Part shown: piece after piece, positions 2,119 to 14,163 of the stretch
Numbering within the stretch: the stretch's first letter is position 1
How the letters are laid out: each line of letters opens with the position of its first letter
Virus record (IMG/VR): IMGVR_UViG_3300025135_000008
Location: 1-50,288 of that record
Source: a virus
Lineage: Duplodnaviria > Caudoviricetes
Strand: one strand, 5' to 3'
DNA: 50,288 nucleotides
The notes under the pieces: generated by a model
Seen by the model: only the letters and a program-made list of their open reading frames with translations
What the model was told of the DNA's origin: nothing
Database searches by the model: none
Made by a program: the position numbers and the translations under genes

Positions 2119-4625
2119 ATCGAATCCAAGACCTTACACGCGGCAGGTGGCCTGACCTGCTGCAATCACTTGCTGGCTTGTCAGCAGAACAACTAACTAA
2201 CAAGCATCAGCCATGCCCACTATGCGGCGGCAAGGATCGCTATAGATTTGATGATCACGAAGGCACAGGATCTTGGTATTGCAATAAGTGCGGCGGGAAG
2301 GATCACAATGGCGGCGGCGGATCTGGAATGGAGATGTTGATGCGCCGCAATGATTGGACATTCAAGGAAGCAGCAGAAAAGATTAATCAACGGCTTACGC
2401 CCATTCCACCACCAGAATTAAGCGGTTGGGACAAGGCTTGGCATTACACAGATACCTTCTATGTACTTAGGCGGGATTTGGCAAATGGTGAAAAGAAAAT
2501 TCGACCTTACCGGTTCAACGGTCAGAAATGGGAGTTCAAACATGTTGAGCGCAACCGCCCCATCCTCAACCAAGACGACATAGCAAAGAAACCCGGTGTT
2601 CCCGTCATCGTCGTTGAAGGGGAGAAATGCGCCGACGCTCTCCAGTTGCTGCTGCCTTCTCATTTGGTGACTGCCTGGCCGGGTGGGGCGAACTCGATCA
2701 ACTTAGTTGACTGGTCGCCGCTGGCCAATCGCAAGGTGATCCTGTGGCCCGACAACGATGACGCAGGAAGAATATGCATGGCAAAGCTTGCCGTAATACT
2801 ACTAAAAACCGGGGTAGAGCGTGTACGAATTATCAATCCACCAGCGGATAAGCCGGAAAAGTGGGATGTAGCAGATTCTGGCTTCAGTAGCGCTGATGCC
2901 ATTGCGTTTATTAAGGACCACCTGAGCGAACCAATTGAACTACCGGAGGAGCCAGAACAGCAAACCATCGAGGTCGAGACAGGGCCAAGGCTTGATAACA
3001 CCGCGCAGTTTGTCTGCCTTGGCTTCAATGACAGCAGCTACTACTACCAGCCATCCAGCACCGGCCAAGTTGTTGCGCTAAGCCGGTCAGCGCATACGGG
3101 CACCAACCTATGTGCATTGGCGCCCCTGTCCTACTGGGAGACCTTGTATCCATCCAAGATGGGTGTGAATTGGTCAGCAGCCGCATCCTCGCTATTTGAA
3201 CAGTCCGCCAAGGTGGGCGTGTACGACCCATCAAGGCTGCGCGGGCGAGGTGCGTGGTGGGACAACGACCGCTCAGTGCTCCACCTAGGCGACCGCATCA
3301 TCGTGGACGGCAGCGCCCAGCCAAGCAGTGATCGGCTAAGTAATAGCAAATACATCTATCAACGGTTAGCAGAGATTACATCACCCGAGATAAATAATCC
3401 GCTAACGGTTGAAGAATCAACCAAGATTTGCAGGCTTGCGGAGCGTTTCCTATGGGAGGTGCCAGCGTCCGGTTTGCTACTGGCAGGCTGGGTAACGCTT
3501 GCGCCGATCTGCGGTGTACTCGACTGGAGGCCGCACGCATGGCTTACCGCTGGTGCCGGGTCAGGCAAGAGCACAGTCATGGAGTGTTTTATCACACCAC
3601 TGCTGGGTGAGTTGGGGTTGATTGTTGTTGGCAACACAACAGAAGCTGGCATCCGCCAAGCACTTAAAGCTGATGCAAGGCCGGTTGTGTTTGACGAAGC
3701 AGAATCCAACGAAAGGTATGACCAACAGCGAATGCAGTCGATCCTGTCACTGGCAAGGATTGCATCGTTTGAATCCAGAGCAAACTTGCTTAAAGGCACG
3801 CCTGACGGAACAATTCAATCGTTTACAATTCGCTCCATGTTTTTTATGTCATCCATCGTAACTGCACTGAAACAGGGTGCAGATAAGACGCGATTTGCGC
3901 AACTGACATTACTGAATCCAAGGGAGGTGATCGCAGACACTGACAAGAGAGACAAGCAGTGGCATGAGCTGAAGCGAGACCTAGAGCAGAGCATTGACGA
4001 CAACGTTGGGCGGCGCCTGCAGGCGAGGACCATCAGCCTGATACCAGTAATACGCAAATCAATTGAAGTATTTTGCGAAGTAGCGGCCAAGGAGTTCGAT
4101 TCCCAGCGCCAAGGCGACCAATACGGCACATTGCTGGCGGGCGCGTGGTCCCTCATTTCAAATGAGCCCGCCACCCCAGGGCAAGCGCGAAAACTAATTC
4201 AAGACAATAATTGGGATTCGTACAGCCAGGCGACCGACAAGCCGGATGAGGTTGGCTGCCTCGAACGAATAATGCAACATCAAATACGTGTTGAAGGCGA
4301 ACGAACAGTCAGCCGTTCAATCGGTGAGTTAGTCGAAATTGCAATCTACCACAAAACCGATATAGACGTTCCTCCAGGGGAGGCGGATTCGACCCTTGGA
4401 AGGCACGGAATCAAGATCGCCAGGGAGGAGAAAGTGGTGATCATTTCCAACTCCGCTCAAGCCATTGCACATATTCTTCGTGATACTGCTTGGGCTAATT
4501 GTTGGCCGACTGTGCTCTTACGCCTGCCTTGTGCCAGTCGGGCGGGTGTCACATACTTTAAGGGCGCAGGTAGTACATCTAGGGGTGTAAAGGTCCCTTT
4601 TCTTACGCTCTTACAGGGGGTGTAA
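2115..4625 (+). CDS. primase-helicase (P4 alpha-type Zn-binding domain + TOPRIM + P-loop helicase)
   Basis: HQPCPLCGGKDRYRFDD..WYCNKCG Zn-binding domain; VVEGEKCADA and WPDND TOPRIM motifs; AGAGSGKS Walker A and VVFDEAE Walker B. Confidence 0.9.
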   Translation: MNRIQDLTRGRWPDLLQSLAGLSAEQLTNKHQPCPLCGGKDRYRFDDHEGTGSWYCNKCGGKDHNGGGGSGMEMLMRRNDWTFKEAAEKINQRLTPIPPPELSGWDKAWHYTDTFYVLRRDLANGEKKIRPYRFNGQKWEFKHVERNRPILNQDDIAKKPGVPVIVVEGEKCADALQLLLPSHLVTAWPGGANSINLVDWSPLANRKVILWPDNDDAGRICMAKLAVILLKTGVERVRIINPPADKPEKWDVADSGFSSADAIAFIKDHLSEPIELPEEPEQQTIEVETGPRLDNTAQFVCLGFNDSSYYYQPSSTGQVVALSRSAHTGTNLCALAPLSYWETLYPSKMGVNWSAAASSLFEQSAKVGVYDPSRLRGRGAWWDNDRSVLHLGDRIIVDGSAQPSSDRLSNSKYIYQRLAEITSPEINNPLTVEESTKICRLAERFLWEVPASGLLLAGWVTLAPICGVLDWRPHAWLTAGAGSGKSTVMECFITPLLGELGLIVVGNTTEAGIRQALKADARPVVFDEAESNERYDQQRMQSILSLARIASFESRANLLKGTPDGTIQSFTIRSMFFMSSIVTALKQGADKTRFAQLTLLNPREVIADTDKRDKQWHELKRDLEQSIDDNVGRRLQARTISLIPVIRKSIEVFCEVAAKEFDSQRQGDQYGTLLAGAWSLISNEPATPGQARKLIQDNNWDSYSQATDKPDEVGCLERIMQHQIRVEGERTVSRSIGELVEIAIYHKTDIDVPPGEADSTLGRHGIKIAREEKVVIISNSAQAIAHILRDTAWANCWPTVLLRLPCASRAGVTYFKGAGSTSRGVKVPFLTLLQGV

Positions 4626-8453: not shown

Positions 8454-9001
8454 CTATTACGTTTGATGACCTTTACCCTGGCCGGTTTCTTAAGGCTGGC
8501 AACATTGCAAACGGCAAGGCAACTTACACAATCAAGGCTGTTGTGCGTGAGCAAATTGAAGGCGAAAAGGGAATGGAAGATAAGGTCGTAATGAGCTTTG
8601 AGGAAACAGCAATGCAGCTAGTCTTGCCAAAAGTTAATGCTGTTGCAGTCAGGGCAATGTTTGGTAGCAATGTACAGGAATGGATTGGCAAGCGATTGAC
8701 GTTGTATGCAACAACAGAGATCATGCCATTTCCTAAGCGACGCAATGATCCATGCATCAGGGTATTTGGCAGCCCTGATATCAGTGAGGAGGTTGTATGC
8801 GAGTGGACGCCGCCCAAACGGCGTAAGCTTGTGCAAACGCTGCAGCCAACTGGCTATTACCAAGTTGCGTTGCGTGCGATCAAGCAATCAACACCGGACC
8901 AGGCGGCGAAACTGCAAGATCGTGTGCTACAATTGCATAGCTCCGGGGACCTAACGGAGCAAGAACACAAACTACTGCTTGAGCAAATCCATGAGCTTTA
9001 A
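8450..9001 (+). CDS. conserved phage protein, candidate recombination/ssDNA-annealing partner
   Basis: ATGA-coupled to the RecE-like gene; FLKA..., LVL.KVN, FG..EWIGKRLTLY. Function inferred from position only. Confidence 0.55.
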   Translation: MTITFDDLYPGRFLKAGNIANGKATYTIKAVVREQIEGEKGMEDKVVMSFEETAMQLVLPKVNAVAVRAMFGSNVQEWIGKRLTLYATTEIMPFPKRRNDPCIRVFGSPDISEEVVCEWTPPKRRKLVQTLQPTGYYQVALRAIKQSTPDQAAKLQDRVLQLHSSGDLTEQEHKLLLEQIHEL

Positions 9002-9362
9002 GGTTAGCGGCGCGTTGTTTCAGCAGCCAATTGAAAAGGTAAAGCAACGCTTGAAAGAGCGTTTTGATCCAGACAAAAATTACCCGCAATACGACGGTGT
9101 GCTTAATGTACCTGCCGATCAAGCATTTGAGCTGGCTAAGTATTTGATGGAAGGCAAGCCAGTTGGTGATCGCCAAGAGATCCCGGTTCAAATCAGTGGA
9201 TGGAAGCGTCAATCACAAGGCGGGCAGCCCTATCTCAGCCTTCAGTTTGGACCGCATTACAAGTATGAAGCGGTTGCCGCTGATGCAACAGTTGCAAGCG
9301 CTAAATCATTGGCTACTGCAACCAGTGGTACTGTGATCGACGAAGACGACATTCCGTTCTGA
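8991..9362 (+). CDS. single-stranded DNA-binding protein (DUF736-like)
   Basis: GALF...PQYDG...ISGWKR.S..G.PYLSL and acidic tail EDDIPF. Confidence 0.7.
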   Translation: MSFKVSGALFQQPIEKVKQRLKERFDPDKNYPQYDGVLNVPADQAFELAKYLMEGKPVGDRQEIPVQISGWKRQSQGGQPYLSLQFGPHYKYEAVAADATVASAKSLATATSGTVIDEDDIPF

Positions 9363-9366
9363 AGCC

Positions 9367-9528
9367 ATGAGAATCCACGGCAAAAAAGCTTACTATCAAA
9401 TCTTGCTTGATGTTGACAAAGCACAGGCCGTAGAGGATCAGGCCGCTGCAAACAATCAGCGGCCAACAAATCTAATGCGTCAATGGATTTACCAACAACT
9501 TAACAATGACACACCAAATCAAGACTAA
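9367..9528 (+). CDS. small putative RHH-like DNA-binding protein, 53 aa
   Basis: Manual translation MRIHGKKAYYQILLDVDKAQAVEDQAAANNQRPTNLMRQWIYQQL...; fills the gap after SSB. Not in the ORF track. Confidence 0.5.
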   Translation: MRIHGKKAYYQILLDVDKAQAVEDQAAANNQRPTNLMRQWIYQQLNNDTPNQD

Positions 9529-9751
9529 CCGAAGCGTTTACCACGTTAAAAGCTTGAGTACCGAAAACAGTTACTGGAAGTACCGCGAAGGATTTAATGT
9601 TGGCGTTCGCGGATGGGGCGAAGGTGAATCTGCAAAGGTTCTAAAAAGGGTTAACGGCTTGCCGTTTCCGCATTACAAGGTGCTCTGCCCCGATGGCTCT
9701 GTGCGTCAAATTGCGCAACTGGAGCTGATTACATTGCGGCATAAAGCCTGA
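9506..9751 (+). CDS. hypothetical protein
   Basis: 81-aa ORF in a co-directional run. Confidence 0.55.
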   Translation: MTHQIKTNRSVYHVKSLSTENSYWKYREGFNVGVRGWGEGESAKVLKRVNGLPFPHYKVLCPDGSVRQIAQLELITLRHKA

Positions 9752-9757
9752 TCGCCA

Positions 9758-10207
9758 ATGCTTGCTTGTTGCCCCGAGTGCAGCGCAAATGCTGGCGTGG
9801 TAATGAGGACTCGCGTGCTGCGTAACGATACCCGGCGCCGCCGTTACGAATGCCGCTCATGCGGCCATCGGTGGACGGTAGTAGACGGTGAAGTGCCAGC
9901 ACGCCTTCATCCACAGCGCGACCGTAGCAAGCCTGTCAGCCGCAAGGGATTTGACGTTGAGGCTGTGGAAGCAATTCTGACTTCACGCGAAAGCGACGGA
10001 GCGATTGCCGAGGCTTACGGTTGCACGCGCCAGGCAATCAACCAGCTACGGACCGGGAGAACGCATGCGGAGGTGCTGCCAGAGCTGCCGCGACGTGGTG
10101 CAGTTTTGTGCTACAGTTGCAAGCACTGGAGCAAGGACCGGTGTGGGTTTGACCTACCCGAGGCCGGAAGTCCAGAATCTACCGATTGTAATTATTATGA
10201 CCGATGA
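9758..10207 (+). CDS. Zn-ribbon (NrdR N-terminal-like) + HTH regulatory protein
   Basis: CPEC...RRRRYECRSCGHRWT; IAEAYGCTRQAINQLRTG HTH; C-terminal CYSC..C..C cluster. Confidence 0.65.
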   Translation: MLACCPECSANAGVVMRTRVLRNDTRRRRYECRSCGHRWTVVDGEVPARLHPQRDRSKPVSRKGFDVEAVEAILTSRESDGAIAEAYGCTRQAINQLRTGRTHAEVLPELPRRGAVLCYSCKHWSKDRCGFDLPEAGSPESTDCNYYDR

Positions 10208-10385
10208 CGAAATCTTTTGGACGCTAGACGTAGCGTCACGCTTTGGCGGTTCGTTTTTCGCTGAACTTGCAAAGGCGGCACGGTTTGCTGACCCTAGGAA
10301 CAAGAAACGGGTGCTAGAGGCATTCCCAGAGATTGCCGCAAACTACGGACCCGGCACTAACTTTTACCGCATGTATTCCTTTTAA
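10197..10385 (+). CDS. conserved hypothetical phage protein
   Basis: MTDDEIF...RFGGSFFAELAKAARFADPRNKKRVLEAFPE; ATG at 10197. Confidence 0.6.
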   Translation: MTDDEIFWTLDVASRFGGSFFAELAKAARFADPRNKKRVLEAFPEIAANYGPGTNFYRMYSF

Positions 10386-10389
10386 CGCT

Positions 10390-10527
10390 ATGCAACCCAA
10401 ACGCTTTTATTTTCAAGTTAACAATTGCTTTGATTTTGTCTGGGCAGTGAGCCGTGTCGAGGCACAGCACAAGCTAATGTACTCCAAGTACGCACCCCTT
10501 TACCGGTACATCCAATGGCTAGCTTGA
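10390..10527 (+). CDS. hypothetical protein
   Basis: MQPKRFYFQV... 45 aa filling the gap. Confidence 0.5.
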   Translation: MQPKRFYFQVNNCFDFVWAVSRVEAQHKLMYSKYAPLYRYIQWLA

Positions 10528-10649
10528 ATTACAACGTTCCCAAAGAAGACCAAAGCTGCGGCAACTGCTATTACGCGGAAATGGATGCGCTCGCCATGGG
10601 GGACGGTCCTTTGACCTGCCACCATTCTTTCGCCAGGGAGCCTCGCCCT

Positions 10650-11069
10650 TCAGGGCGGGGAGGAATGGCCTTCAGGACGATCCTGCTCAGCGATGTAGCG
10701 CCTGAGCGTTTCGATGGTGGCGCCGCCAGCACTTGAAGCGAAGTAGCTCGGACTCCAAAGGTGCTCGCCGTGCGGACGCAAAGGGAACTCCTTTCGCAGC
10801 ATCCGACTGGACACTCCCTTGAGCGCGTTGACCAGGGCCGACACCGCGATGGCGGGCGGGTACTCGACCAGGAGGTGAACGTGGTCCGCCTCGCCGTTGA
10901 ACTCCAGCAGCTGGAAGCCCATCTTCTCGGCAACACCTAAGCAGACCGCCTCCATCCGCTCAAGGTGCTCAGCCGTCAGTACCGCTCGCCTGTACTTAAC
11001 GACGAAGACCAAGTGGACAACCAGTCTGGAAACACTGTGCCTGCCTCGTCTGAGCGGTTGCTGTGCCAT
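10650..11069 (-). CDS. tnpA: IS200-type Y1 HUH transposase
   Basis: HLVFVVKYRR, DHVHLL (HUH), LKGVSSR, LWSPSYF, YIAEQ (catalytic Tyr). Confidence 0.95.
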   Translation of the reverse strand: MAQQPLRRGRHSVSRLVVHLVFVVKYRRAVLTAEHLERMEAVCLGVAEKMGFQLLEFNGEADHVHLLVEYPPAIAVSALVNALKGVSSRMLRKEFPLRPHGEHLWSPSYFASSAGGATIETLRRYIAEQDRPEGHSSPP

Positions 11070-11098
11070 TACAGACCAATAGTGGTATGGTGATTGGT

Positions 11099-12301
11099 AT
11101 GCAACTACGGTACCGCTACCGCTGCTACCCCAGCCCCGCCCAACAGCAGGCCCTGTCCCGCTCGTTCGGCTGTGCTCGGGTTGTCTGGAATGACGCCCTA
11201 GCCCTGAGCAACAAGCTCTATGGCGAAGGGCAGAAGTATCTAGGCGGTTCGGCGTTGATGGCCCTGGTCATCACCAACGCCAAGCGGACACCGGAACGGC
11301 AGTGGCTGGCCGACGCATCCCATTCGATGCTGCAGCAGTCAGTGCGCGACCTGGACCGCGCCTTCCGCAACTGGTGGGGTTCACTTACCGGCAAGCACAA
11401 AGGCAAAGCCAGGGCACCGCGTTTCAAGAAGCGGAGCAACGACCAGAGCATCCGCATCTGTGGCAAGGAGTTCCGCGTCACAGATAAAGGCGTCCGCTTC
11501 CCCAAGGTGGGCGATCTGCGTCTGGTGTGGTCCCGCCCGCTGCCAGCGGTGCCTTCCTCCTGCACCCTGATCAAGGATGCGGCAGGGCGGTACTTCGCCA
11601 GCTTCGTTGTGGAGGTGGACCGACCCCAGTTGGAGGCCAACGGCAACACCGTGGGCATCGACCTGGGCCTGACAACCTTCGCCACGCTCAGCACTGGCGA
11701 GAAGGTAGATGCGCCCAAGCCCCTGCGTGCTGCCCTCAAGCGGTTACGCAAGCTGCAGCGCAACCTCTCCCGCAAGACCAAAGGGAGCAACCGCCGCAAC
11801 CGTGCGCGGATTCAAGTGGCGCGGCTTCACGCCCGCATCGCTGACACCCGCAAGGACTTCCTCGGCAAGCTCAGCACTCGCATCATCCGTGAGAACCAAA
11901 CGGTGGTGCTTGAGGATCTGAAGGTCTCGGGGATGATCCGCAACCGGAAGCTGGCCCGCTCTATCGCGGATGCAGGCTGGCGGCAGTTCCGCCTGCTGCT
12001 TGAATCCAAGGCCCTGATGTATGGCCGCACGGTCAACATCATCAGCACCTGGGAGCCAACCTCTCAGCGGTGCTCAGCCTGCGGAGAGCTGGGCGGCAAG
12101 AAGCCGCTGAACATCAGGGCGTGGACCTGTCTGCACTGCGGTGCTGAACACGATAGGGACATCAACGCCGCCAACAACATCGCCGCCGCTGGACAGGTGG
12201 AGGCGCAAAACGGACGTGGAGCCAGGCATAAGACGGGTTCGCCCGCTGCAGGCTGTGAAGCGTCAACCCAACAGGGGAGCAAGCAGCTATGCCTGCTCTG
12301 A
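11099..12301 (+). CDS. tnpB: RNA-guided endonuclease TnpB
   Basis: YRYRCYP..Q...FGCARVVWN; RuvC I GIDLG, RuvC II VLEDL, Zn finger CSACG/CLHCG, RuvC III DRDINAA; all three acidic residues present. Confidence 0.95.
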   Translation: MQLRYRYRCYPSPAQQQALSRSFGCARVVWNDALALSNKLYGEGQKYLGGSALMALVITNAKRTPERQWLADASHSMLQQSVRDLDRAFRNWWGSLTGKHKGKARAPRFKKRSNDQSIRICGKEFRVTDKGVRFPKVGDLRLVWSRPLPAVPSSCTLIKDAAGRYFASFVVEVDRPQLEANGNTVGIDLGLTTFATLSTGEKVDAPKPLRAALKRLRKLQRNLSRKTKGSNRRNRARIQVARLHARIADTRKDFLGKLSTRIIRENQTVVLEDLKVSGMIRNRKLARSIADAGWRQFRLLLESKALMYGRTVNIISTWEPTSQRCSACGELGGKKPLNIRAWTCLHCGAEHDRDINAANNIAAAGQVEAQNGRGARHKTGSPAAGCEASTQQGSKQLCLL

Positions 12302-12359
12302 CTGGGAATCTCCGGCCTTCAGGCCGGGGAGGATGTCAATCTTGCTCTCCATCGTTGGT
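12130..12359 (+). ncRNA. predicted TnpB omegaRNA/reRNA (scaffold + flank-derived guide); 5' boundary approximate
   Basis: Inferred from established TnpB biology: the RNA overlaps the tnpB 3' end and the right end, and the guide is the flank after TCAA (12340 onward). Confidence 0.55.
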
Positions 12360-12456
12360 TGATGGCGATTCAGCGCGATGGCCGGTTGTGCTTCCGCATT
12401 ATTGGTGTGGAGAATGGGGGCCAATGATGTAGGATTTACTCGTCGCATTTGATTTT

Positions 12457-12768
12457 ATGTCTGTTTTTGAAAAAGTCACCATTGACGAAGTACGCACGCG
12501 GACCATGCGTCGCACTAAAACGTCTCCGCTGCGTGAGCAAATTCTTGCCATGAAGCTGGGTGATGCCATCTTCGTGCCTTTTTACAACCCTGAAACCGGC
12601 GAAGGCTTCAAGCAGCCAACCATCAACCAAGTGGCTGGCAATCTTGGCCGCGACAGCGCTGAATTGCGGTATTGCGTCCGCAAGGACATGACACGTAACG
12701 GAGCGTTTGTTGTGTGCATGACCCGCGAAGGGGAAGGCAAAAAGCGCGGCCCCAAGCCCCGCAAATAG
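12457..12768 (+). CDS. hypothetical basic protein
   Basis: 103-aa ORF, basic termini, co-directional. Confidence 0.6.
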   Translation: MSVFEKVTIDEVRTRTMRRTKTSPLREQILAMKLGDAIFVPFYNPETGEGFKQPTINQVAGNLGRDSAELRYCVRKDMTRNGAFVVCMTREGEGKKRGPKPRK

Positions 12769-12774
12769 TAAATT

Positions 12775-13179
12775 ATGCAAATTACATTTCAGTCGCACAC
12801 GCTTGAACGGCAAATCGGTCTGTCAGATTTGCCAAAGCTGACCCGTGACCAGTTGCGTTATTTGCACGCGGAACTGGTCATGGCTGTTCAGTCAATGGAT
12901 GAAAAGATGACAGAGCAGCAAGCACAAGAGGTGCCAGCCGATAAGGACTGGTTGCATCGTGTGCGCAAAAAACGACGCATATGCGTTGCGTTTGCTAGCC
13001 AGGTAAAGCAGGCAATGTCTGACAGCGCGGTAGAAAAAATCTACCGTTTGCGGTTAGATGAAATGCTGTCGCAAGAACTTGGCGAGGTGCTGTGGAGTGA
13101 ATTCAAGCGTGAGGCCCTTGATTTTGCGTTGGAGCGAGTTGAAGCTTCAGATCATCCACAAGCAGTTCTAGGCGCATGA
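12775..13179 (+). CDS. hypothetical protein
   Basis: 134-aa helical ORF. Confidence 0.6.
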   Translation: MQITFQSHTLERQIGLSDLPKLTRDQLRYLHAELVMAVQSMDEKMTEQQAQEVPADKDWLHRVRKKRRICVAFASQVKQAMSDSAVEKIYRLRLDEMLSQELGEVLWSEFKREALDFALERVEASDHPQAVLGA

Positions 13180-13321
13180 TTTCATGCGTTGCATTGCTGA
13201 GGAGCTGGCAATAGGTTTCGCAAGTGCGATAGAGCATACCTTCGCGTTCTGTCATGCTGCGAGCTGTGGTTTCAGCCTCCAGCTCGCGAGTCAGGTTTTG
13301 TTTTACTTTTATCCATTCCAT
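13103..13321 (-). CDS. small helical protein, possibly NblA-like
   Basis: MEWIKVKQNLTRELEAETTARSM...LLSNATHEIMRLE; fills a 150-nt gap on the opposite strand. Resemblance to viral NblA-like proteins is weak. Confidence 0.35.
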   Translation of the reverse strand: MEWIKVKQNLTRELEAETTARSMTEREGMLYRTCETYCQLLSNATHEIMRLELLVDDLKLQLAPTQNQGPHA

Positions 13322-13328
13322 CAGAATC

Positions 13329-13961
13329 ATGATTACAAAGCTTATTCATGTTACTCCAGACGCTGAGCGTTTGATTGTCAAGATGGCCAGGGTGTCAGCC
13401 CCTGACAATCAAGACAACTGGGAGACCGGCCCCAAGCTGTTGCGTTACCTGATCAAGCACAAGCACTGGAGCCCGCTAGAGATGGCAAGCATGTGCGTTG
13501 AGATTGAAACAGAGCGTGACATTGCGGCGCAAATTTTGCGTCACCGGTCATTTAGCTTCCAAGAGTATTCAACGCGCTATGCCAAAACGTTTCCGGCGGA
13601 GATGCCAGCAGTGAGACGACAGGATGCGGCAAATAGGCAAAACAGTATTGATGATTTTCCCGCATCAGCGAAGGCCGCTTGGGATGTTGCAATTGGCAAG
13701 CAGCTAACCGAAGCGTATGCCTTGTATCAGAAAATGCTAGATAGCGGTGTCGCGAAAGAATGCGCTCGTCGTGTGCTGCCATTGTGCACACCAACAACGC
13801 TTTTTATGCACGGAACGCTTAGGAGCTGGGTGCATTACATCGAGTTGCGGTCCAGTGAGGGAACGCAGCTTGAGCACAGACAGATTGCGCTAGAATGCAA
13901 AAATCTATTTTCTAAACAATTTCCAATTATTGCCGCTGCTGCGGGTTTTACTTATGATTGA
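13329..13961 (+). CDS. thyX: FAD-dependent thymidylate synthase
   Basis: HWSPLEM, RHRSFSFQEYSTRY (RHRx7S motif), ECARRVLP, TQLEHR. Confidence 0.95.
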   Translation: MITKLIHVTPDAERLIVKMARVSAPDNQDNWETGPKLLRYLIKHKHWSPLEMASMCVEIETERDIAAQILRHRSFSFQEYSTRYAKTFPAEMPAVRRQDAANRQNSIDDFPASAKAAWDVAIGKQLTEAYALYQKMLDSGVAKECARRVLPLCTPTTLFMHGTLRSWVHYIELRSSEGTQLEHRQIALECKNLFSKQFPIIAAAAGFTYD

Positions 13962-14163
13962 TTTACTGTGGCTTGAAATTTTGGCAGCTCGATGGTTGAT
14001 TCGTTCGCCACGCATTGGCATGATTGCAATTCGTCAACGTGACCAGCCGGTGACCTGGGTGTTGCTTGACCCAGAGGATCAGCTAAACCGTCAGAAAGAA
14101 GAGCCAGAGCCTCCAAGCATGTTGCTTGAGCGGTTGTTCCACGAACCAGATGCCTTGCGTTGA
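13954..14163 (+). CDS. hypothetical protein
   Basis: MIDLLWLE...; overlaps the thyX stop. Confidence 0.55.
   Translation: MIDLLWLEILAARWLIRSPRIGMIAIRQRDQPVTWVLLDPEDQLNRQKEEPEPPSMLLERLFHEPDALR

What the first reader, a model, noticed from the sequence alone, without database searches (positions are those of the whole stretch)
10619..12359. Intact TnpA/TnpB element in a phage, with a sequence-readable CCAC target motif and guide
Seen: GAAT (12306-12309) precedes the right hairpin and the element ends TCAA (12339), the same guide/cleavage pair as IS608. The equivalent left-end tetramer is GGAG (10637-10640), which by the IS608 pairing rule predicts target CCAC. CCAC lies at 10619-10622, and excising 10623-12339 restores the interrupted ORF in frame, so two independent lines fix the ends. 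TnpB keeps its RuvC D/E/D residues and Zn finger. Inference: TAM = CCAC (perhaps GCCAC), guide = TCTTGCTCTCCATCGTTGGT. TnpB would cut IS-free alleles of co-infecting sibling phages or post-excision genomes, acting as an RNA-guided homing/competition device. A C-rich TAM differs from TTGAT (ISDra2) and may be useful for editing.
Basis: partly seen in the sequence, partly recalled or inferred. Interest (0 to 1): 0.75.

Follow-up and report, generated by a model that had tools for sequence, protein, structure and literature searches.

The report
Intact TnpA/TnpB insertion sequence in a phage
A complete jumping gene of the IS200/IS605 family, with its transposase and its RNA-guided nuclease TnpB, sits inside a small gene of a tailed phage, and closely related phages from other samples carry the same site unoccupied, so the element's exact ends, its target motif (CCAC) and its guide sequence can be read directly.

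Summary
Window 10623-12339 (1,717 bp) is an intact IS200/IS605-family element. It has a Y1 transposase tnpA (10650-11069, minus), tnpB (11099-12301, plus) and imperfect-palindrome ends. The window is a complete tailed-phage genome.

The predicted ends are exact. In an independent metagenome run (X2), a contig of a relative with about 97-98% identical flanks joins 10622 directly to 12340, with no ambiguity and no duplication. A second run (X4) shows the same empty site. In 17 further right-end copies the flanks diverge immediately after TCAA.

Left ends of related copies covary with their target as the IS608 structure predicts: GGAG/CCAC in the window and L177 (run X3's copy also follows CCAC; its guide letters were not seen), GGAA/CCAT, GAAA/TCAT and GATG/TCAC. 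The extension to GCCAC is not supported.

TnpB keeps D188/E272/D354 and its zinc finger, and is under purifying selection (dN/dS 0.06-0.13). The 3' region that overlaps the ωRNA shows covarying stems.

The element is a new member of a known kind. TnpB cutting of IS-free sibling phages follows from the established mechanism and is now testable, because both alleles exist in nature. It has not been shown. Interest is moderate.

The parts
10515..10622 (+). 5' part (36 codons, ends ...GPLTCH) of the small Cys-rich phage ORF that the IS interrupts
   Evidence: ORF list. The frame arithmetic gives 108 nt = 36 codons. The stretch is contiguous with 12340 onward in the empty-site contigs of X2 and X4.
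10619..10622 (+). Target tetranucleotide CCAC (left cleavage site C_L; inferred TnpB TAM)
   Evidence: Sequence. It is the last 4 nt before the joint in X2 and X4. CCAC is also seen before the L177 copy and the X3 copy, and CCAT before the L097 and X4 copies. It pairs with GGAG by the IS608 rule.
10623..12339 (+). The insertion sequence, 1,717 bp, top strand = + strand
   Evidence: It is skipped exactly in the X2 contig (10622|12340, both=0). GC is 0.62 against 0.50 in the flanks.
10637..10640 (+). Left guide tetranucleotide G_L = GGAG, immediately 5' of the hairpin foot
   Evidence: Sequence. It covaries with the target in related copies.
10641..10660 (+). Left-end imperfect palindrome (8-bp arms with one T.G, loop TTCA). 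The tnpA stop codon lies in its loop.
10650..11069 (-). tnpA, Y1 (HUH) transposase, 139 aa; HVH at residues 63-65, Tyr125
   Evidence: Pfam Y1_Tnp, E 1.3e-39, model positions 1-121 of 121. Motifs located.
11099..12301 (+). tnpB, RNA-guided nuclease, 400 aa; RuvC D188/E272/D354; Zn finger C325, C328, C344, C347
   Evidence: Three Pfam domains. Alignment to ISDra2 TnpB at E 8e-67. Positions. dN/dS is 0.06-0.13 among 4 copies.
12210..12339 (+). Minimum predicted ωRNA scaffold, overlapping the tnpB 3' end and the right end; its 5' limit is unknown
   Evidence: On 20 aligned relatives, 16 pairs are 96.5% paired, with covariation 0.283 against 0.103 shuffled (0 of 500). Synonymous divergence is lower in the last 36 codons. 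There are weak Rfam hits to HgcC (E 0.025) and sot0042, both below gathering score.
12306..12309 (+). Right guide tetranucleotide G_R = GAAT
   Evidence: Sequence. GAAT occurs in 39 of 42 right-end-like hairpins found in the fetched loci.
12310..12329 (+). Right-end imperfect palindrome
   Evidence: There are compensatory changes at two stem pairs across relatives.
12336..12339 (+). Right cleavage site C_R = TCAA, the last bases of the element
   Evidence: Flanks of 15 copies and of L098 and L177 diverge right after TCAA. The joint agrees.
12340..12359 (+). Flank that would be read as the ωRNA guide (16-20 nt); together with CCAC it forms the target in the empty allele
   Evidence: Its position follows from the known TnpB mechanism (inference). 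It is unique in the phage: no other site has 3 or fewer mismatches. In the occupied allele it is preceded by TCAA, not CCAC.
12340..12432 (+). 3' part (30 codons plus stop, SCSPSLVD...GPMM*) of the interrupted ORF
   Evidence: The X4 variant of this stretch differs by two synonymous changes plus one Ser-to-Cys codon in this frame (my reading of table 5c).

Best explanation
Window 10623-12339 is an intact, probably active member of the IS200/IS605 family, with divergent tnpA and tnpB. It inserted by single-strand 'peel and paste' transposition, 3' of CCAC, into a small Cys-rich early-region gene of a tailed phage.

TnpA recognises the two subterminal hairpins. The cleavage sites are picked by DNA-DNA pairing with the tetramer 5' of each hairpin: GGAG with CCAC at the left end, and GAAT with TCAA at the right end.

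Transcription through the tnpB 3' end and the right end would give an ωRNA whose last 16-20 nt are the phage flank starting at 12340. TnpB loaded with this RNA would cut any copy of the phage genome that carries CCAC directly followed by that flank. That means the post-excision donor joint, or the IS-free allele of a sibling phage replicating in the same cell. Repair from an occupied copy, or loss of the cut genome, would then keep and spread the element.

Shown here: the anatomy, the exact ends, the natural empty allele, the guide/target covariation, the intact catalytic residues, purifying selection, and a conserved RNA-type structure. Inferred: expression of the ωRNA, TnpB's own TAM being CCAC (CCAY), cleavage, and any effect during phage infection.
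For: Ends.
- The X2 contig joins 10622|12340, skips 1,717 bases, has both=0 and 62 letters on the short side.
- X4 contig 27 covers 10243-10622, then 16 letters whose first 11 equal 12340-12350, then 12356-12940.
- Right-end flanks diverge after TCAA in 15 copies and in L098 and L177.

Family features.
- Pfam Y1_Tnp and three TnpB domains.
- ISDra2 TnpB structures matched at E 8e-67, with D/E/D and CxxC...CxxC aligned.

Pairing rule.
- Read from PMC5934647 and PMC3201880 (passages).
- 13 of 15 left-end-like hairpins in the fetched loci carry the predicted tetramer 12-22 nt upstream. 11 of them lie at 15-19 nt and use four guide/target combinations.

Activity of the lineage.
- tnpB dN/dS is 0.06-0.13 among four copies at four different sites.
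- A 99.3% identical copy sits in another flank in run X3.

ωRNA.
- Covarying stems, 0 of 500 shuffles reaching the observed score, and slid controls at 0.078 or less against 0.283.
- The single-sequence fold has z = -2.6.

Self versus target.
- The guide sequence is unique in the genome. In the occupied allele it is preceded by TCAA.

Mechanism in print.
- TnpB as a homing nuclease for vacant sites (abstract starts in the listing).
- TnpB as a gene drive in plasmids (PMC11870625 abstract).
Against: - No RNA data, no cleavage data and no host are available.
- The TAM read by the TnpB protein was not measured. Near-identical TnpBs (95-96%) sit behind CCAC in two copies and CCAT in one. L098 has an aberrant left end (a 5-nt insertion in the hairpin arm, possibly target TGAC), so the coupling of TnpA target and TnpB TAM is not perfectly clean.
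- In the probable source sample X1, only the occupied allele was seen. Contigs drop rare variants, so co-occurrence of both alleles in one community is not shown.
- The right junction in X1 rests on a contig that reaches only 30 nt into the right end, and those 30 nt are shared by other IS copies in that sample.
- The covariation structure was derived from the same alignment on which it was counted, which favours it.
- The right-end hairpin is also needed as DNA by TnpA, so its covariation is not specific to an RNA.
- The reduction in synonymous divergence at the 3' end rests on only 1-3 changes per pair.
Confidence: 0.8

Rival explanations
1. Passive passenger. The element hopped into the phage genome from a host chromosome during an infection and is simply carried along. 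TnpB and the ωRNA play no part in the phage's life, and the insertion is neutral or slightly harmful and transient.
For: - The element's GC (0.62) is foreign to the phage (0.50).
- The relatives at highest depth (X2, depth about 62-64) lack it, while the occupied phage has depth 9.
- TnpB genes are common in phage records (419 records with a tblastn match), which fits frequent accidental capture.
Against: - Four diverged copies of this lineage (dS 0.2-0.36) all lie on viral or virus-sized contigs and keep tnpB under strong purifying selection.
- In X1 the IS and the flanks have equal depth (9.1 against 8), so the insertion looks fixed in that population.
- Passive carriage does not exclude standard TnpB retention activity.
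Confidence: 0.15
2. Competitor killing rather than homing. TnpB cuts IS-free sibling phages, and the main effect is exclusion of the rival genome, as described for some free-standing phage homing endonucleases. The element is not copied into the rival.
For: - The IS-free allele exists in close relatives and carries CCAC plus a flank that matches at least at the junction (X2), or over 11 TAM-proximal bases (X4).
- The 2026 review (PMC13565253, passages) describes competitor killing by phage homing endonucleases. It lists co-infecting phages as theoretical targets of transposon homing.
Against: Nothing here separates killing from conversion. Flanks that are 97-98% identical would allow recombinational repair and therefore copying. 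No expression data exist.
Confidence: 0.1
3. The ends are different (for example, the element starts after TTGAC at 10615), or the join is an assembly chimera and the IS is not truly in this phage.
For: - 7 of the 10 bases upstream of the junction happen to match between the window and L097.
- Both possible reading frames stay open after the two candidate excisions (my reading).
- Logan contigs in X1 break inside the repeated right end.
Against: - The X2 joint is at 10622|12340 with no positional ambiguity, and X4 agrees.
- L177 shares nothing with the window upstream of CCAC.
- An X1 contig of 12,331 nt runs without a difference from the left flank through the left end to 12334. Depths match on both sides.
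Confidence: 0.02

Closest known systems
IS608 (Helicobacter pylori), the structural model of IS200/IS605 transposition
   Same: - Y1 HUH TnpA plus TnpB.
- Subterminal imperfect palindromes.
- Right guide/cleavage pair GAAT/TCAA, and 10 nt from hairpin foot to cut.
- Left cleavage site picked by the tetramer 5' of the hairpin, with the same geometry (positions 1, 2 and 4 Watson-Crick, position 3 A:A).
- No target duplication.
(PMC5934647 and PMC3201880 passages.)
   Different: - The left guide/target is GGAG/CCAC instead of AAAG/TTAC.
- There are 18 nt rather than 19 nt from cut to hairpin foot.
- tnpA and tnpB are divergent here, with start codons 29 bp apart. That IS608 has them in the same direction is recalled, not from a call.
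- The host replicon is a phage.
ISDra2 TnpB (Deinococcus radiodurans; PDB 8bf8, 8ex9, 8exa, 8h1j)
   Same: Best natural solved relative of the TnpB (E 8e-67, residues 6-373 aligned). The RuvC D191/E278/D361 residues and the zinc finger are conserved. The expected mode of action is the same: an ωRNA from the tnpB 3' end plus the right end, with the guide taken from the flank.
   Different: The target/TAM TTGAT (PMC5934647 passage for the ISDra2 integration site) differs from CCAC/CCAT here. Identity is moderate. No activity data exist for this protein.
tnpB elements of Ralstonia phages Dimitile and Cimandef (annotated 'IS200/IS605 family transposase ISAba30'), and the solo right end in phage Eline
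   Same: The last 35 nt of the right end (GGAAT, hairpin, AGGATGTCAA) are 100% identical, and the element also resides in a phage genome.
   Different: TnpB is only about 33% identical. No tnpA is annotated in the region shown for Dimitile and Cimandef. The left ends differ and the rest shows no DNA similarity.
IS605-family TnpB gene drive in multicopy plasmids (Mears et al. 2025 preprint, PMC11870625)
   Same: The logic is the same: the guide records the insertion site, and TnpB cuts IS-free copies of a multicopy replicon, which biases inheritance towards IS-bearing copies (abstract).
   Different: That was shown for plasmids in the laboratory. Here the replicon is a phage, and only the two natural alleles are seen, not the drive.

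Membership tests
IS200/IS605 family insertion sequence | Y1 (HUH) single-strand transposase TnpA | tested here: met
   Pfam Y1_Tnp, E 1.3e-39, full model. HVH at residues 63-65 and Tyr125 are present.
IS200/IS605 family insertion sequence | Subterminal imperfect palindromes at both ends, no terminal inverted repeats | tested here: met
   Hairpins at 10641-10660 and 12310-12329, each with one T.G, on the same strand.
IS200/IS605 family insertion sequence | Insertion 3' of a specific short target, without target-site duplication, and precise excision that restores the site | tested here: met
   The empty-site contigs join 10622|12340 with no shared or duplicated letters. CCAC or CCAT lies before five independent insertions.
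IS200/IS605 family insertion sequence | Cleavage sites chosen by pairing with the guide tetramer 5' of each hairpin | tested here: met
   GGAG/CCAC and GAAT/TCAA fit the IS608 rule. 13 of 15 left-end-like hairpins carry the predicted tetramer, with covariation at two positions. This is sequence evidence only; no biochemistry was done.
TnpB (OMEGA) RNA-guided nuclease | RuvC-like D/E/D catalytic triad and C-terminal zinc finger | tested here: met
   D188, E272 and D354 align to D191, E278 and D361 of ISDra2 TnpB. C325, C328, C344 and C347 are present.
TnpB (OMEGA) RNA-guided nuclease | Structured ωRNA encoded over the tnpB 3' end and the right end, with a flank-derived guide | tested here: inconclusive
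   There are covarying stems, lowered synonymous divergence and Rfam HgcC/sot0042 hits below gathering score.
TnpB (OMEGA) RNA-guided nuclease | TAM-dependent, guide-dependent double-strand DNA cleavage | not testable with these tools
   This needs a TAM-library or plasmid-interference assay.
Homing / gene-drive element acting between phage genomes | A natural allele without the element that carries the recognition site (TAM plus target) | tested here: met
   X2 and X4 contigs. The full 16-20 nt match in X2 could not be read, because differences there were not listed.
Homing / gene-drive element acting between phage genomes | Super-Mendelian inheritance of the element in mixed infections | not testable with these tools
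   No host or isolate is available. The two alleles were not seen in the same sample.

The most novel reading that the evidence does not exclude
TnpB works in phage populations as an RNA-guided gene drive, and IS-free sibling phages are already escaping it.

The IS-free allele in run X4 has 4 changed bases within positions 12-16 of the 16-nt predicted target. The flanks of the same contig differ at about 2.2% (21 of 965). Two of the four changes are synonymous, and the other two make one Ser-to-Cys codon. That is the pattern expected for escape from, or scarring near, a TAM-distal TnpB cut while the small protein is kept.

If this is right, the locus would be a natural record of an arms race between a transposon-borne guide RNA and its phage target.
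Probability: 0.15. Interest if true: 0.75.

Novelty: new member of a known kind. Interest (0 to 1): 0.42.

Why it matters
The element itself is an ordinary IS200/IS605 member, although an unusually well resolved one. Its ends, target motif and guide are fixed by a natural empty site rather than by inference alone.

Its value is as a test case. Whether TnpB drives transposons through phage populations, as it does through plasmid populations, is so far a theoretical category in the literature I could search. Here both alleles of one phage locus exist in public data, together with the predicted TAM and guide, so the question could be put to a simple surrogate or co-infection experiment.

A CCAY target would also add a C-rich motif to the mostly T-rich TnpB TAMs I know of (recalled). 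No paper in the searched library holds TnpB, TAM and CCAC together. One word search cannot show that such TAMs are unknown, and supplementary tables could not be opened.

Tried and rejected
- Alternative left boundary after TTGAC (10615). I considered it because 7 of 10 bases upstream of the junction match between the window and L097, and because both frames stay open after either excision. I rejected it because of the X2/X4 joints and because L177 shares nothing upstream of CCAC.
- Protein-level proof of the intact small ORF. The search for homologous proteins with the 73-aa truncated product returned only the window's own protein (1 of 1 candidates), so there is no family assignment. Pfam found nothing for either piece. 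A likely reason is that the relatives' gene is split over short Logan contigs.
- Related phages through the neighbouring gene 12457-12768. 4 stretches matched a pattern and none was confirmed.
- Exact left-end pattern in viral contigs: 0 matches.
- TnpA relatives in representative genomes. The best is 59% identical (cyanobacteria and actinomycetes on top), so there is no host clue.
- Plasmids. No place covers 80% or more of the IS. The nine records at 99% identity or more were not among the listed rows, so I did not see what they cover.
- GenBank phages. Only the 35-nt right end matches at DNA level.
- No tRNA genes, so no host hint from that either.
- In X1 no empty allele was seen. Contigs drop rare variants, so this says nothing about absence.
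- L098's left end could not be interpreted with confidence. Reading the hairpin foot as CCTCG gives guide CAGG and predicted target TGAC, which is present 14 nt upstream. This is one post-hoc match and is kept as tentative.
- Supplementary files of papers were not opened, so TAM tables in TnpB screening papers that might list CCAC-like motifs were not seen.
Full report
WHAT IS THERE. The window is an IMG/VR virus record of 50,288 bases that CheckV rates as complete. PHROG searches of its ten largest ORFs give large terminase, portal, a major-head/protease protein, tape measure, tail fibres, endolysin, helicase and primase. ThyX lies at 13254-13961, and there are no tRNA genes. It is therefore a tailed phage.

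The region 10623-12339 lies among small plus-strand ORFs of the replication and nucleotide-metabolism module. It stands out at about 0.62 GC against about 0.50 around it. It holds two genes:
- A 139-aa Y1 transposase on the minus strand (10650-11069). It matches Pfam Y1_Tnp at E 1.3e-39 over the whole model, with HVH at residues 63-65 and Tyr125.
- A 400-aa TnpB on the plus strand (ATG 11099 to stop 12301), with the OrfB_IS605, zinc-ribbon and HTH domains.

The two start codons are 29 bp apart and face away from each other. The tnpA stop codon lies in the loop of the left hairpin.

GAAT/TCAA is the right guide/cleavage pair of IS608, and AAAG/TTAC is its left pair (Figure 1 legend of PMC5934647). 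The 10 nt between the right hairpin foot and the cut equal the IS608 value, and the 18 nt at the left compare with 19 nt in IS608 (PMC3201880).

TnpB aligns over residues 6-373 with the ISDra2 TnpB chains 8bf8/8ex9/8exa (E 8e-67). Counting along the printed chain, D191, E278 and D361 face D188, E272 and D354 here, and both CxxC pairs are kept.

THE ENDS ARE PROVEN BY A NATURAL EMPTY SITE. I searched public runs with window 9000-14000 and laid the contigs of four of them on the region.
- X1 is probably the source sample. It holds the occupied allele. One 12,331-nt contig runs without a difference from the left flank to 12334, and a second starts at 12310. Depth is 9.1 on the left flank and the IS and 8 on the right flank.
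- X2 comes from another sample and study. It holds a relative at depth about 62-64 with about 97-98% identical flanks. One of its contigs has 62 letters on 10561-10622 and continues at 12340. The tool reports a joint 10622 to 12340 that skips 1,717 bases, with zero letters that fit either side.
- X4 comes from the same study as X2 but a different sample. It has a contig on 10243-10622, then 16 letters, then 12356-12940. The first 11 of the 16 letters equal 12340-12350, so this is the same empty site with a diverged flank.

There is no duplication and no lost base. The alternative boundary after TTGAC (10615) is excluded.

The right boundary is confirmed independently. The 34-nt right end occurs exactly in 12 IMG/VR contigs. 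The 35-nt version occurs in three Ralstonia phages, across five database records. In all 15 copies listed, and in L098 and L177, the sequences diverge immediately after TCAA.

OTHER COPIES AND THE PAIRING RULE. Close copies of this IS lineage (TnpB 95-96% identical) lie at three other sites: L097 (the same contig as L095), L098 and L177. Two of them start like the window:
- L177 has CCAC, then the element, with GGAG before the hairpin.
- L097 has CCAT, then the element, with GGAA before the hairpin.

Upstream of the tetramer nothing is shared between the window and L177. The partial upstream match between the window and L097 (7 of 10 bases) is therefore best read as chance. In L097 that stretch is the ribosome-binding site of a neighbouring gene.

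The runs add two more insertions:
- In X3, a 99.3% identical copy has another right flank, and a short contig covers 10618-10664 and then goes on unlike, so CCAC is preceded by G.
- In X4, a tnpA-less copy is preceded by CCAT.

The base at -5 is G, C, G, T, C over the five insertions, so GCCAC is not supported.

The IS608 target-capture structure paper states the pairs A+16:T-3, A+17:T-4 and G+19:C-1. The rule is therefore: target = complement of g2, complement of g1, A, complement of g4. It reproduces both IS608 ends and both ends here.

I applied the rule to every GC-rich hairpin of this type in the fetched loci. 42 were right-end-like, and 39 of them had GAAT. Of the 15 others:
- 13 carried the predicted tetramer 12-22 nt upstream.
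- 11 of the 13 lay at 15-19 nt, with four combinations: GGAG/CCAC, GGAA/CCAT, GATG/TCAC, and GAAA or GAGA/TCAT.
- The other two hits (L145, L148) look like chance or wrong-strand reads.
- The two misses are L125 (TTAT instead of TCAT) and L098.

Chance for one given tetramer in 11 positions is about 4%. The loci are related, however, so this is not a clean probability. The point is that the change lies outside the element and tracks the change inside it.

L098 has a 5-nt insertion in the left hairpin arm and AAAT instead of GAAT at the right. It may be decaying. A tentative reading gives guide CAGG and target TGAC.

IS TnpB LIKELY TO WORK, AND IS THERE AN ωRNA? Among the four close copies, tnpB shows dS 0.20-0.36 with dN/dS 0.06-0.13, so the protein is kept by selection in this lineage.

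For the RNA, I aligned the last 130 nt before the cut from 20 relatives. RNAalifold then found three helices:
- the right hairpin;
- a long-range stem inside the tnpB 3' end, where one pair is split 9 C-G to 9 U-A;
- an inner stem.

In the pair count, 96.5% of cells are paired and 8 of 16 pairs show changes on both sides. The covariation score is 0.283, against 0.103 in shuffles (0 of 500 reach it) and at most 0.078 when partners are slid.

Three caveats apply. The structure came from the same alignment. The sequences are related. The right hairpin is also needed as DNA by TnpA.

Further hints:
- Between the conserved blocks, each lineage has its own self-complementary stretch just before GGAAT (by eye).
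- Synonymous divergence in the last 36 codons is 0.04-0.12 against 0.22-0.29 upstream, but it rests on only 1-3 changes per pair.
- The single-sequence fold of 12170-12339 has z = -2.6.
- Rfam gives only hits below gathering score, to HgcC (22.5 bits against 50, E 0.025) and sot0042. My recollection that these archaeal RNAs derive from tnpB 3' regions is from memory.

HOW IT MOST LIKELY WORKS. TnpA excises the top strand as a circle and seals the donor as CCAC followed by the right flank. The ωRNA carries that flank as its guide. TnpB cuts CCAC plus flank wherever it is vacant, and recombination with an occupied copy restores the element.

This is the published mechanism for IS605-family TnpB (abstract starts). 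It has been shown as a gene drive in multicopy plasmids (PMC11870625, abstract).

In the occupied allele the guide sequence is preceded by TCAA, so the element does not target itself. No other site in the phage comes within 3 mismatches of the 16-nt target.

A replicating phage is a multicopy replicon. A 2026 review lists co-infecting phages or plasmids as the target of a theoretical 'transposon non-restorative homing' (PMC13565253, passages). I found no demonstration in phages in two word searches, which cannot prove there is none. None of the functional steps was shown here.

THE INTERRUPTED GENE. 10515-10622 is exactly 36 codons, and 12340 opens a codon of a frame that runs 30 codons to a stop at 12430-12432. 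The two pieces each carry a CxxC pair: CGNC in the first, and the second formed across the junction by the last Cys of the first piece and the first Cys of the second.

In X4 the four differences in the first 16 nt of the second piece are two synonymous changes and one Ser-to-Cys codon in this frame (my reading), which supports that the frame is coding. No family could be assigned.

COMPARISON AND NOVELTY. The element meets every sequence-level criterion of IS200/IS605 that I could test, and its TnpB meets the criteria of the OMEGA nucleases. RNA expression and cleavage could not be tested.

TnpB genes are frequent in phage records: 419 of 50,697 records have a tblastn match. Carriage by a phage is therefore not new. 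The element is a new member of a known kind.

What is uncommon is the completeness of the evidence (tnpA present, both alleles known) and the CCAY target.

The most novel reading that the data allow is that the cluster of four changes at target positions 12-16 in the X4 allele reflects escape from, or scarring by, TnpB cutting. The rest of that contig differs at 21 of 965 bases. This is a single observation in mosaic phage DNA, and I give it 0.15.

VERDICT. The functional claims are plausible but untested. Interest is 0.42.

Noticed in passing
window 12340-12355, compared with the run X4 contig (table 5c): The IS-free allele in X4 differs at 4 of the 16 bases of the predicted TnpB target, all at positions 12-16. 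The flanks of the same contig differ at 21 of 965 bases. In the ORF frame, two changes are synonymous and two make one Ser-to-Cys codon. This may be target-site escape, or it may just be mosaic variation.
   Followed up: partly
L095 5875-6018 (minus); the same arrangement occurs in L177 and in a run X4 contig (joint 10663 to 11099): The tnpA-less copies of this IS lineage carry, in place of tnpA, about 200 bp with a 47-aa ORF. It gives weak hits, below cut-off, to ribbon-helix-helix-type families (DUF6290 E 1e-4, NikA-like E 1e-3). It may be an Arc-like regulator of the kind named in a 2026 preprint title (search listing only).
   Followed up: partly
L002 3001-3035, L003 3001-3035, and L085-L096: The last 34-35 nt of the right end are identical in elements whose TnpB proteins are only 32-45% identical to the window's. 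These include Ralstonia phages Dimitile and Cimandef. This points to extreme constraint on this piece, or to exchange of it between IS lineages.
   Followed up: partly
L003 about 2980-3035 (Ralstonia phage Eline): A solo right-end remnant of about 55 nt, with no tnpB upstream, lies at a different genome position from the full element of the sister phages Dimitile and Cimandef.
   Followed up: no
L211 about 990-1090: There is a tandem duplication of the right end. The 49-nt unit (starting GCCTGCTCTGACTGG and ending in TCAA) follows directly after the TCAA of a complete right end.
   Followed up: no
L098 2020-2065 and 3700-3738: This full tnpA+tnpB copy (92% DNA identity) has a 5-nt insertion in the 5' arm of the left hairpin, an unrelated segment between the cut and the hairpin, and AAAT instead of GAAT as the right guide. 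It may be a decaying or retargeted copy.
   Followed up: partly
window 9758-10207: This 149-aa ORF has a weak NrdR-like zinc-ribbon match below cut-off (E 6e-4), and it overlaps another long open frame (10005-10385). Gene calls among the small early ORFs are uncertain.
   Followed up: no
run X1, loose ends at 12305 and 12339 (table 7): The probable source sample holds five or six further contigs with the same right end in other flanks. These are of the type seen in the Ralstonia phages, so several IS605-family lineages coexist in that community.
   Followed up: no
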